NCBI RefSeq assembly: GCF_013167455.1
Contig: NZ_CP038328.1
Length of the DNA stretch: 64,000 bases
Strand: one strand, 5' to 3'
Source: Escherichia coli O157:H7
GTDB lineage: Bacteria; Pseudomonadota; Gammaproteobacteria; Enterobacterales; Enterobacteriaceae
Positions 6,001 to 9,000 of the stretch are shown here, piece after piece. Position numbers: made by a program. Numbering within the stretch: the stretch's first letter is position 1; each line of letters opens with the position of its first letter.

Positions 6001-9000
6001 TCCTCATCCGGCCTCTCCACCTGCTCTTCCTCATGCCGGGGGACAAGCAGACTGAAATCAGAGGGATGCATATCCGGATCGCAAAAAAACAGGCTGAGTA
6101 CAGCGTACGTCAGCCCGGAAAAATGCATATCCAGCTGGGTATCCTGAAAATAATGCGTGCGGTAAAAACGGTGCCAGTCGGCATATTCGGTGGATGTCAT
6201 CCCGGCAAGCATGGCGCGCCAGTCGGGTCTCCCCATCTCACGCGCCAGTCTGAGGGCAAAGTTCAGCTCGCCGTCGAAGACTTTCCCGCAGAAAAATCAT
6301 CATCAGTCAGCGTGTTATTTTTCGCCACTTCAGTAATATCAGTATCCGGACGAACAGCCCCGCTCATCCCGGACAGGCACAACACCACGTCTTCCGCCCG
6401 GGCAATGGCATCGGCAGGCCAGGTGGTGAGCACTTCCTGCTCTATCTTCATCACGGCCTCATTCATTGACGGTGACTGCGTTTTCTGTGGATGGTTATGC
6501 CACAGGGACATCGCCACCAGAAACGCGCCGGTTCTGACGAGATCTTCCACGCTTACCTGCAGGTTGCCGCTGGATTCTGCCTGTTCTGCACGCCGTTTCA
6601 GGAGGGCAAGATGCTCGATACGCTGCAGCGCAGACAATTCGGAAAGCGTGACAGACACACCGTTATATTCAAATTGTTCTGTTTTCAGAAACATGTATGA
6701 CCTCCGTTTACCCTGCAGCGCCCGCTTCAGTAACGGTGACTTCAGCCACTGCGGCGAACTGACCATTTCCGCTCACCACAGGGATCTGCACCTTACCTGT
6801 CGCCACGCCGTTTACCGTAATTGTCATATCTTTCACACTAATGGTGGCTTTCGACGGATCGGCGGAAACCGCTCTGAACGTCTTGTCTGTTGCACTTTCC
6901 GGCTCAAAAGAAACCGTCAGGGTGGTTGTTTTCCCTTTTGCCACCGTACCGGATGTCGGCGTCACCTTAATCGCACTGACCGGCGTAATTTTGCTGCGTT
7001 CTTCCGCTACAGAAGGTTTACCCACGTTAGTGACTTTCACCGTGCGGGTGATCACTTCTTTCGCCGTCACGGCCTTACCGATACTGCTGACCCAGCCACG
7101 AAACACATCCACCGTGCCATTCGGAAAACGGATTTTATAGGCCCGGACATCGCCGCTTTCAAACCAGCCTATAAGCCCTTTCTGGCCTTCCTCTCCCGGT
7201 TTCCAGGCCAGCGTAAAACTGGTATCACCTGCAGATTTCTGCCCCTGCCCGGTCGCGGTCCAGTCCGCGTCTTCATCATCCAGGTAGTTATCATCGTAGG
7301 ATTCTGCCGTCATCTCGCCCGGCGTCAGATCCTTCACCTTAGCCAGTCGCTGCCAGTCATCGTCTGACAACGGGTTTGCATAGGCGTCACCCTGACCGTT
7401 ATAAACCCACAGGGTGGTACCGGCTCCTTTTACCGGCTCCAGGGGAATTCGTGTTTCGGCTTGACGTAGCCCGGACGTAACACGCGGGTTTCACCACCGC
7501 GATGACGCAGCACTTTTCCTTCAACAACCGGGGAGACATAGGCCGCCACCGGCGTTTTTCCGGTAATTTTGTCCAGCATCACCTCTTCGGTATGGAAATT
7601 CACCGTACGGCGGAAAAACAGCTCCAGAAACAGCGCACGAAATTTCACTTTTTGTTCGGTATAACCGAGTAACTGGCGGGTCGTAAACAATCCCATAAAT
7701 CAGTTCCTTTCATTCAGAAATCAGTCAGGCCACCGCGGTGGCCTGATAACGTGTTACGGCAGCGCCGCGTGACTCAGGGCACTGCCGGCAAAGGCATTTG
7801 CCTTTTTGTGTTCATCCACACTTTCAGGCCAGCGGATTGCCTCCGTCGCAAAGGTCCCCGACTTGTAATAGGTCAGTACCGTCTCTGTGCCTTCAAGCGG
7901 CAGTACCAGTATGCCAACTGCACTACCGGCTTTCTGTCCGTCCCAGACCACCAGTTTCCCGCTGGCTTCATCCAGCATCAGGGGCGTCAGTGCCGGTGTT
8001 GCCGAGGAAATCCCGCTGCTGCCTGTGGCGGTATGAGCCGGATCATTACCGGCAAAAATACGTACTTCCGCACGCTATTCAGTGATGTTTTTCGTTACCA
8101 TATTGTAAAAACCTCCTGTTGATGGTCAGCACTGACTTCATGGCATGGCCATGAGCATTTTCACGTCCGCATCACCGTCTGCTGACGTCTGTGGCACGCC
8201 ACCCTGTACCGCAGCCGGTGAATGGTTCGCCATGATGCGTTCAAACAGGGCGGTTGTGGATGCAGAGACCGGTTCTGCCTTACCTGATCCCGCAGCCAGC
8301 ACAGCCCGGGCGCTCTCCACAGTCATTCCCGGGCAGGCAGCCAGCTGTTCAGCCTGCGCCTCAGCCCCTTTTGCCTCATCCAGTGCCATGATCTGATCAC
8401 GGAGTGAGGGTCCGGCATCCGCCTGCGGTGAAGCAGCCAGGATCGGGCGGGCTTTTTCCACCGTCATCTCCGGCATCGCCGCCAGCGTTGCCGCCAGTTG
8501 TTCACGACCGTTCGCTTCTTCACACGCCATAATGCGATCGGCTTCACTCTGCGTGGATGCCACCGGCTGCTGCGGTGCCGCCGCGGCCAGAATCGCCCGG
8601 GCCTGTTCAACGCTCATGCCCTGTTGTCCTGCCAGCATCGTGGCAAGCTGTTCACGTCCTTTCGCTTCCTGGCATGTCAGGATCCCCATCACTCGCTGGT
8701 TCTCCTGCGCGGCGGCTTCCGTTGCAGTTAATTGCGGCATAGTGCCTCCTCTGACATTACTGTTCAGCGCCGTGGCCATCACACTGATGGCATCCGACGC
8801 ATTGACTAATTCATCCGCCAGCCCGGCATCAATGCCGGACTGACCTTCAAAAACGGCGGCCTCTGTTCCCGTGACGGCATCAACAGACAGACCGGTAAAC
8901 ATGGCCACTTTTTCGGCAAACATCCGGCGCGCCGCATCAATGCGCTGCTGCATGTTCTGGCGAACCTCTGCCGGTAAGGCTTCAAACTGATTGCCATCCA

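What the first reader, a model, noticed from the sequence alone, without database searches (positions are those of the whole stretch)
8320..8745. Three tandem ~35-residue repeats in the scaffold part of the head protease gene
The C-terminal third of the gpC-like protein repeats CQEAKGREQLATMLAGQQGMSVEQARAILAA / CEEANGREQLAATLAAMPEMTVEKARPILAA / LDEAKGAEAQAEQLAACPGMTVESARAVLAA. Repeat number may set scaffold length and is a likely site of recombinational variation.
Basis: seen in the sequence. Interest (0 to 1): 0.3.

Follow-up and report, generated by a model that had tools for sequence, protein, structure and literature searches.

The report
Phage 21 scaffold "Tri box" repeats
The three repeats are real, but they are the "Tri boxes" already annotated in the scaffolding gene of coliphage 21: three old, diverged copies of a small helical domain that lambda-like phages normally carry once, here in a decayed E. 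coli O157:H7 prophage.

Summary
The minus-strand gene 8138-9643 (501 aa) encodes an S49 head protease followed by three tandem units (aa 314-358, 367-407, 415-453). Pairwise scores lie 11-15 SD above shuffles, and each unit scores 64-83 bits against a unit HMM. At the DNA level the repeat is barely visible: TRF finds nothing, in-register identity is 57-66%, and the longest shared run is 8-9 nt.

The gene is 98.6% identical to phage 21 gene 5. GenBank M81255 already annotates "Tri1 box / Tri box / Tri3 box" (function unknown) inside the nested scaffold gene 6, which here is 8138-8740 with a GGAGG ribosome-binding site.

The unit is a predicted three-helix mini-domain (pLDDT 88-92). It occurs in at least 2,625 protein clusters and is almost always single-copy (lambda, phi80, N15, Sano and others). 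The triplication is old and each copy is conserved. Variants with 2, about 2.5 and 4 units exist but are rare.

The binding partner and function of the unit are unproven. My best reading is a multivalent protein-interaction module of the scaffold. The surrounding prophage is defective. Verdict: already known, low interest.

The parts
8138..9643 (-). Phage 21 gene 5 / lambda C-type gene: S49 head maturation protease fused to a C-terminal scaffold region (501 aa)
   Evidence: ORF. Pfam PF01343 E=2.8e-35. phrog_53 head maturation protease E=1e-227. 98.6% nt identity to phage 21 gene 5, with 10 aa differences.
8765..9208 (-). S49 peptidase domain (aa 146-293)
   Evidence: Pfam PF01343; TIGR00706 SppA_dom E=2e-31, below its cut-off.
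8138..8740 (-). Nested in-frame scaffold gene (phage 21 gene 6 / Nu3 analogue), 200 aa, ATG at 8740-8738
   Evidence: M81255 and OL657228 both annotate gene 6 at the homologous position. The start context is aGAGGAGGcactATG. Expression was not tested here.
8745..8752 (-). Shine-Dalgarno sequence AGAGGAGG for the nested scaffold start, encoded by the Gly-Gly codons of gp5
   Evidence: The equivalent 'GG(T/R)M' start with an SD is seen in N15 and lambda.
8570..8704 (-). Unit 1 (Tri1 box), aa 314-358: ENQRVMGILTCQEAKGREQLATMLAGQQGMSVEQARAILAAAAPQ
   Evidence: HMM 83 bits. M81255 'Tri1 box' maps to window 8570-8673. It clusters with the single unit of lambda and phi80.
8423..8545 (-). Unit 2 (Tri box), aa 367-407: EADRIMACEEANGREQLAATLAAMPEMTVEKARPILAASPQ
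   Evidence: HMM 72 bits. M81255 'Tri box' maps to window 8423-8533.
8285..8401 (-). Unit 3 (Tri3 box), aa 415-453: RDQIMALDEAKGAEAQAEQLAACPGMTVESARAVLAAGS
   Evidence: HMM 64 bits. M81255 'Tri3 box' maps to window 8279-8392. AF2 unit pLDDT 88-92, three helices.
8216..8257 (-). Conserved post-repeat helix TTALFERIMANHSP (aa 463-476), the family-wide 'F..hM....P' motif
   Evidence: Conserved in single- and multi-unit homologues. Predicted helix with pLDDT about 70. Its 'ERIMA' start produced the fourth member of the DNA repeat family D2, but it is not a significant fourth unit.
8141..8167 (-). Hydrophobic C-terminal tail DVKMLMAMP (aa 493-501)
   Evidence: A short amphipathic or hydrophobic C-terminal element recurs across the family, e.g. 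DLLNTPV in lambda and LLMSIPG in Gifsy-1. Predicted short helix, pLDDT about 55-60.

Best explanation
The feature is the set of 'Tri boxes' of phage 21's scaffolding protein gp6, present here in a near-identical gene of a decayed lambdoid prophage of E. coli O157:H7. Each box is one copy of a roughly 40-residue module that folds on its own into a small three-helix bundle. The module is the most conserved part of the scaffold region shared by lambda-type S49 protease/scaffold proteins (lambda C/Nu3, N15 gp5/gp6, Xylella phage Sano and others), and it normally occurs once. In the phage 21 / Gifsy-1 lineage an old duplication added two further copies, joined by short flexible Pro/Ala/Gln linkers. 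All three copies have been kept by selection on the protein rather than the DNA. The same C-terminal region is made in two forms. One is the tail of the full-length protease. The other is a separate 200-aa scaffold translated from an internal ATG with its own ribosome-binding site. The following steps are inferred, not shown. The boxes act as protein-protein contact modules that hold scaffold and protease inside the assembling procapsid, by binding the major capsid protein, each other, or both. The conserved C-terminal helix and hydrophobic tail provide a further contact. Three boxes make the scaffold multivalent, in place of the long spacer plus single box of lambda Nu3. After assembly the S49 protease degrades them. 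In this particular window the gene has no working capsid partners in cis.
For: Identity with phage 21 and prior annotation. Statistical reality of the repeats. Nested start with a strong SD, conserved in N15 and lambda. Each unit retains the family's invariant or near-invariant positions (A, G-R, A, A, M, A, L) across 14 three-unit homologues at 45-94% identity and across 21 units. More than half of the conserved residues use different codons, which indicates purifying selection on the protein. Structure: the units are predicted as helix/turn/helix/loop/helix with pLDDT 88-92. Linkers have low confidence and whole-protein pTM is 0.26, so the domains look like independent beads on a string. Breadth: 2,625 clusters at E<=1e-3. 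Of the 146 best, 135 have one unit, 8 have two and 3 have three. Of 62 full-length proteins, 60 are single-copy. Age of the triplication: unit 1 groups with the single unit of lambda and phi80, units 2 and 3 form their own clade across lineages, and win_2 pairs with gif_2. Scaffold role by homology: phrog_8399 head scaffolding and phrog_8940 (Nu3), each matched three or more times. Lambda Nu3 interacts with E, C, B and itself (PMC3224144).
Confidence: 0.8

Rival explanations
1. The boxes are mainly a length-setting spacer or ruler. Their number fixes the distance between the protease domain (or scaffold N-terminus) and the capsid-binding C-terminal tail, and thereby the scaffold core or capsid dimensions.
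For: Extra units coincide with loss of the low-complexity spacer found in single-unit relatives (48-54 aa in lambda and N15 versus 12 aa here). The units are joined by flexible linkers. Copy number varies from 1 to 4.
Against: A spacer would not need invariant charged and glycine positions (EAKGRE, M-[ST]-V-[ED]) kept in every copy across distant phages. Lambda and 21 differ in scaffold length, and the phage with the longer scaffold has the smaller genome. Both make similar T=7 heads (my own knowledge, not tested here). A 19-aa deletion occurs in an intact-looking module.
Confidence: 0.1
2. The repeat matters at the DNA or RNA level, as a recombination hotspot, as regulator-binding sites (OL657228 annotates two CII-type TTGYN6TTGY matches inside gene 6), or as a translational element. 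On this view the protein repeat is a by-product.
For: 15-nt cores recur at 141-156 nt spacing. CII-site pattern matches are annotated in phage 21. Deletion and expansion variants exist.
Against: In-register nucleotide identity is only 57-66%, the longest exact shared run is 8-9 nt, and synonymous differences dominate at conserved residues. TRF finds nothing. Conservation across phages is at the amino-acid level. Copy-number variants are rare in 1,874 E. coli records.
Confidence: 0.03
3. Each box is a helix-hairpin-helix-type nucleic-acid-binding motif, so the scaffold or protease tail contacts DNA, for example during packaging or scaffold exit.
For: Weak Pfam HhH match on unit 3 (PF00633, E=0.09, 13.1 bits). 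RuvA appears among weak structural matches. The sequence 'LAxxPGMTVExAxxIL' resembles the HhH consensus (my reading).
Confidence: 0.04
4. The similarity is a compositional artefact of an Ala/Gln/Glu-rich low-complexity tail rather than true repeats.
For: The region is Ala-rich. BLAST-type tools with low-complexity filters fragment the matches.
Against: Composition-preserving shuffles never reach the observed scores (z = 11-15). The same 44-position profile finds single, well-delimited copies in distant phages at 34-87 bits and in 2,625 clusters in a 1.84-billion-protein library. AF2 predicts a confident fold.
Confidence: 0.01

Closest known systems
Phage 21 gp5/gp6 with 'Tri1 box / Tri box / Tri3 box' (GenBank M81255; Smith & Feiss 1993, cited from memory, paper not held)
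   Same: 98.6% nucleotide identity over the whole gene, the same nested gene 6 start and RBS, and the same three boxes at homologous positions. Only one of the 10 amino-acid differences lies in a box (A373V).
   Different: The copy here sits in a decayed O157:H7 prophage with no working capsid, decoration or terminase genes. GenBank labels the boxes 'function unknown; putative'.
Lambda gpC / gpNu3 (also phi80 gpC and N15 gp5/gp6)
   Same: Same gene position, S49 domain, nested in-frame scaffold, unit sequence (87 bits to the unit HMM), post-unit helix and C-terminal tail.
   Different: One unit instead of three, with a spacer of about 48-54 low-complexity residues ahead of the unit. The protein is 439-447 aa rather than 501 aa.
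Gifsy-1 (Salmonella) gpC homologue and related enterobacterial prophage proteins
   Same: Three units in the same order, with unit 2 pairing with unit 2 of the window protein. This shows the triplication predates the split of these lineages.
   Different: Only 53.5% identity over the scaffold region, and a longer C-terminal extension.
P22 gp8, phi29 gp7, 80alpha gp46 and P2 gpO scaffolding proteins (functional analogues)
   Same: Transient internal scaffolds built from small helical elements and flexible segments. [quoted passage not shown]
   Different: No detectable sequence or fold relationship. In those systems the coat-binding element is a C-terminal helix-turn-helix or tail (my own knowledge). 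None is known to have a triplicated three-helix domain.
Small three-helix protein-binding domains (protein A/affibody, CUE/UBA, RuvA domain III)
   Same: Similar size and topology: 40-43 residues aligned at 2.3-2.5 A.

Membership tests
Phage 21 gp5/gp6 = lambda C/Nu3-type S49 protease-scaffold with nested scaffold gene | S49 (SppA/ClpP-like) peptidase domain in the N-terminal two-thirds | tested here: met
   PF01343 E=2.8e-35, 122 bits against a cut-off of 24.9; phrog_53.
Phage 21 gp5/gp6 = lambda C/Nu3-type S49 protease-scaffold with nested scaffold gene | Gene lies between the lambda-type portal gene and the decoration and major capsid genes | tested here: met
   Portal ORF 9633-11225, decoration pseudogene 7754-8101 and MCP fragment 7430-7696, all on the minus strand. 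The same order is seen in phage 21, lambda, Gifsy-1, N15, Sano and others.
Phage 21 gp5/gp6 = lambda C/Nu3-type S49 protease-scaffold with nested scaffold gene | In-frame internal start with its own RBS giving a separate scaffold protein | tested here: met
   AGAGGAGG-cact-ATG at aa 302, at the position annotated as gene 6 in M81255 and OL657228. Only the sequence signal was tested; actual translation cannot be tested with these tools.
Phage 21 gp5/gp6 = lambda C/Nu3-type S49 protease-scaffold with nested scaffold gene | Three Tri boxes in gene 6 | tested here: met
   Three HMM domains of 64-83 bits, coinciding with the repeat_region features of M81255.
Phage 21 gp5/gp6 = lambda C/Nu3-type S49 protease-scaffold with nested scaffold gene | Acts as a transient scaffold degraded by the protease during procapsid maturation | not testable with these tools
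   Known for lambda from the literature (PMC3224144; PMC8508860). No data for this copy, whose capsid partners are inactivated.
Helix-hairpin-helix motif (Pfam PF00633) | Score at or above Pfam's gathering threshold | tested here: not met
   13.1 bits against a cut-off of 24, E=0.09, on unit 3 only.
P22 gp8-type scaffold coat-binding helix-turn-helix | Sequence or fold similarity to the C-terminal HTH coat-binding domain | tested here: not met

The most novel reading that the evidence does not exclude
The Tri box would be the universal, so far uncurated docking domain of the whole lambda-type S49 protease/scaffold family (at least 2,600 clusters, with no Pfam or NCBIfam model and no solved structure). 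It would bind the inner face of the major capsid protein, or the portal. Natural variants with 1, 2, 3 and 4 boxes would then form a ready-made valency series showing that scaffold multivalency, rather than length, tunes procapsid nucleation and fidelity.
Probability: 0.25. Interest if true: 0.45.

Novelty: already known. Interest (0 to 1): 0.15.

Why it matters
For this window it matters little. The repeats were annotated decades ago in phage 21, and this copy sits in a dead prophage. The wider point is modest but real. The repeated unit is a well-conserved, confidently predicted mini-domain found in thousands of phage protease/scaffold proteins, including lambda's Nu3. No curated family, solved structure or known binding partner exists for it. 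Natural 1-, 2-, 3- and 4-copy versions offer a simple experimental handle on how lambda-like scaffolds engage the capsid shell.

Tried and rejected
1. Tandem Repeats Finder on 7900-9800 at minimum score 30 found nothing. DNA repeat finding gave only 15-nt cores. I therefore rejected a DNA-level tandem repeat.
2. I searched for a curated family covering the unit. Pfam gave only a sub-threshold HhH hit. NCBIfam gave nothing for the 200-aa scaffold. PHROGs gave only whole-protein scaffold and protease families.
3. A PDB sequence search gave only a spurious ribosomal protein at E=1.3.
5. The search for homologous proteins with gp6 returned mostly contig-end fragments. That output is unsuitable for a clean copy-number census, but it did reveal the 2-unit, partly deleted and 4-unit variants.
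6. A search for a 4-unit version among isolated phages found none covering 80% or more of the query. It was found only in an E. coli assembly.
7. Smith & Feiss 1993 and Medina et al. 2011 are not held. Searches for 'Tri box' and for structural work on Nu3 found nothing relevant.
8. A possible fourth unit ('ALFERIMANHSP') scores no better than shuffles against the other units (z of -0.2 to -1.3). It is instead a separate conserved motif present in single-unit relatives.

Full report
**What is there.** The finding lies in a minus-strand ORF, window 8138-9643, of 501 aa. Its N-terminal two-thirds is an S49 peptidase domain (PF01343, aa 146-293, E=2.8e-35). It lies downstream of a lambda-type portal ORF (9633-11225) and upstream of decoration and major capsid gene remnants.

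**Is the repeat more than chance?** Yes, at the protein level.
- Local BLOSUM62 scores between units are 85-101, against about 26 ± 5 for composition-preserving shuffles (z = 11-15; 0 of 500 shuffles reach the observed score).
- A 44-position HMM built from nine units finds three clean domains at aa 314-358, 367-407 and 415-453 (83, 72 and 64 bits).
- A possible fourth copy ('ALFERIMANHSP') is not significant. It is a separate motif also present in single-unit relatives.

At the DNA level the repeat is almost invisible.
- TRF finds nothing.
- The repeat finder finds only 15-nt cores spaced 141-156 nt apart.
- In-register nucleotide identity is 57-66% and the longest exact shared run is 8-9 nt.
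- Ten or eleven of the 18-19 conserved residues per pair use different codons.

The repeat block is 8285-8704, so 8320 truncates unit 3, and 8745 lies at the ribosome-binding site of a nested gene.

**It is already known.**
- The gene is 98.6% identical in DNA to phage 21 gene 5 (M81255.1, OL657228.1), with 10 amino-acid differences.
- M81255 annotates a nested in-frame gene 6 (the Nu3 analogue, 200 aa) with its own RBS.
- Mapped to the window, these are 8570-8673, 8423-8533 and 8279-8392, which are the three units.
- The nested start is window 8740 (aGAGGAGGcactATG).
- The source paper (Smith & Feiss, Gene 1993; cited from memory) is not in the held library.

**Comparison with homologues: copy number.**
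- Lambda, phi80, N15, Xylella phage Sano, Proteus PM87, Marinobacter PS3, Aeromonas A18P4 and a Salmonella chi-like phage each have one unit (34-87 bits).
- Gifsy-1 has three. A Felix-O1-like phage and Vibrio VPHZ6 have none or a degenerate one.
- A profile of 21 units searched against 1.84 billion representative proteins finds 2,625 clusters at E<=1e-3 and 485 at E<=1e-10.
- Of the 146 best, 135 have one unit, 8 have two and 3 have three. Of 62 full-length proteins, 60 are single-copy. Ranking by total score favours multi-copy proteins, so multi-copy forms are genuinely rare.
- One unrelated 469-aa protein (P0099) has two mutually similar units, which indicates an independent duplication.

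Among close relatives there are several variants.
- Two-unit forms: P0020 has an in-register Tri1/Tri2 hybrid ('...GMSVEQARPILAASPQ...'), and P0021 also has two units.
- Forms with the middle unit partly deleted: P0016, and P0009/P0011 (53 member sequences).
- A four-unit form: P0027 (48 members).
- The 19-aa Tri2 deletion occurs in E. coli 98198 within a head/tail module in which every gene is intact.
- The four-unit gene sits next to intact D-, E-, FI- and FII-like genes.

Even so, the 603-bp three-unit region is remarkably uniform. It is present in 1,869 of 5,426 complete E. coli genomes (2,920 places), and 1,868 of 1,874 records cover at least 80% of it.

**Age and selection.**
- In a tree of units, unit 1 of every multi-unit protein groups with the single unit of lambda and phi80. 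They share a 3-residue 'RVM-GIL' extension.
- Units 2 and 3 form a separate clade, and win_2 pairs with Gifsy_2. The triplication therefore predates the divergence of the phage 21 and Gifsy-1 lineages, which are 53.5% identical over this region.
- All copies keep the family's invariant or near-invariant positions, while synonymous sites have diverged. This indicates purifying selection on each copy.
- In the four-unit protein, units 2-4 are 81-92% identical in protein but only 76-79% in DNA. That amplification is younger but not recent.

**Structure.**
- AF2 on the 200-aa scaffold (14-sequence alignment) gives helix/turn/helix/loop/helix for each unit, low-confidence linkers and pTM 0.26. The picture is independent domains on a flexible string.
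- With a deeper, 44-sequence alignment of 'unit to C-terminus', the unit reaches pLDDT 88-92. It is followed by a helix at the 'F..hM' motif (about 70) and a short C-terminal helix (about 55-60).
- No PDB sequence homologue exists.
- The unit has no Pfam or NCBIfam model.

**How it most likely works.**
Shown: this is the conserved core module of the lambda-family scaffold region. It is triplicated and selectively maintained, and it is encoded both as the tail of the protease and as a nested scaffold gene.

Inferred: the modules are protein-protein contact domains that retain scaffold and protease inside the nascent shell.
- Lambda Nu3 is reported to interact with E, C, B and itself (PMC3224144).
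- The conserved C-terminal helix and tail would act as an additional contact.
- Three boxes would give multivalency in place of lambda's long spacer plus one box.
- Which partner the box binds is unknown. My rough split is capsid protein about 0.4, self-association about 0.3, portal about 0.15 and other about 0.15.

The 'length ruler' idea is weakly supported at best.
- Strongly conserved charged positions are not expected of a spacer.
- Phage 21, with the longer scaffold, has the smaller genome.
- A 19-aa deletion is found in an intact-looking module.

DNA-level, HhH/DNA-binding and low-complexity explanations are rejected or unlikely.

**Context of this copy.**
- The window matches E. coli O157:H7 at 100% over the 603-bp scaffold region.
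- The prophage is decayed. The decoration gene has a TAG at codon 9.
- The capsid gene is cut to 88 codons and abuts the tail tube gene. The large terminase is split, and an IS66-family element is inserted nearby.
- The protease/scaffold gene is intact but has no working partners in cis.

**Verdict.** The feature is already known (the phage 21 Tri boxes), so interest is low. The remaining open question, what this widespread uncurated three-helix module binds, is of moderate specialist interest.

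Noticed in passing
L001 (lambda NC_001416) coordinate 5342 versus the annotated nu3 start at 5132; window 8738-8752: Lambda has a strong SD plus ATG (tcAGGAGGgcgaATG) at gpC codon 309. 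This aligns with the nested scaffold starts of phage 21 and N15 ('GG[TR]M', with the Gly-Gly codons forming the SD). The RefSeq nu3 start at codon 239 has no comparable SD. Residues 309-439 make 131 aa and 13.39 kDa, which matches my recollection of the size quoted for purified gpNu3. The RefSeq nu3 coordinates may therefore be too long.
   Followed up: partly
window 7754-8101 (-): The head decoration (shp/D-like) gene has an in-frame TAG at codon 9 (MVTKNITE*), so it is a pseudogene here.
   Followed up: yes
window 7430-7696 (-) and 6708-7370 (-): The major capsid gene is reduced to its first 88 codons (PF03864 positions 1-80 of 329). It directly abuts a lambda V-type tail tube gene. The FI, FII, Z and U equivalents are therefore deleted and the prophage cannot build its own head.
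   Followed up: partly
window 11412-13399 (-) and 13606-15939 (-): The large terminase is split into two ORFs (134 aa and 528 aa, both hitting the GpA_ATPase family). An IS66-family element (TnpA, TnpB and TnpC ORFs) lies between it and a small ORF at 15994-16269. By position that ORF could be the terminase small subunit, but it had no Pfam hit.
   Followed up: partly
L016 (E. coli GCA_032727965.1 contig), genes 1-6042: The four-unit variant of the protease/scaffold gene is followed by lambda-type D, E, FI and FII homologues. After these come gp25-like and baseplate-J-like genes. This looks like a lambda-type head module joined to contractile-tail baseplate genes.
   Followed up: no
L017 (E. 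coli 98198, NZ_CP173570.1) 6098-7546: A 482-aa allele lacks 19 residues of the middle unit ('...CEEANGREQLAAAPLADAGPS...'). It sits in a head/tail module in which every gene is annotated as intact. The same deletion is seen in P0009 and P0011 (53 member sequences).
   Followed up: partly
Proteins P0098, P0138, P0139, P0202: These are 185-223-aa proteins carrying two units. Several end in repeated 'W..xL.SRGM'-like motifs. They may be stand-alone scaffolds of a different head-module type.
   Followed up: no
L003 (OL657228 phage 21) 2409-2422 and 2643-2656; equivalent to the window gene 6 region: The phage 21 genome record annotates two 'CII binding sites' (TTGYN6TTGY) on the opposite strand inside gene 6, one of them within the repeat region. 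They look like bare pattern matches.
   Followed up: no
Unit family as a whole: A roughly 44-residue module present in at least 2,625 protein clusters, including lambda Nu3, has no Pfam or NCBIfam model and no solved structure.
   Followed up: yes
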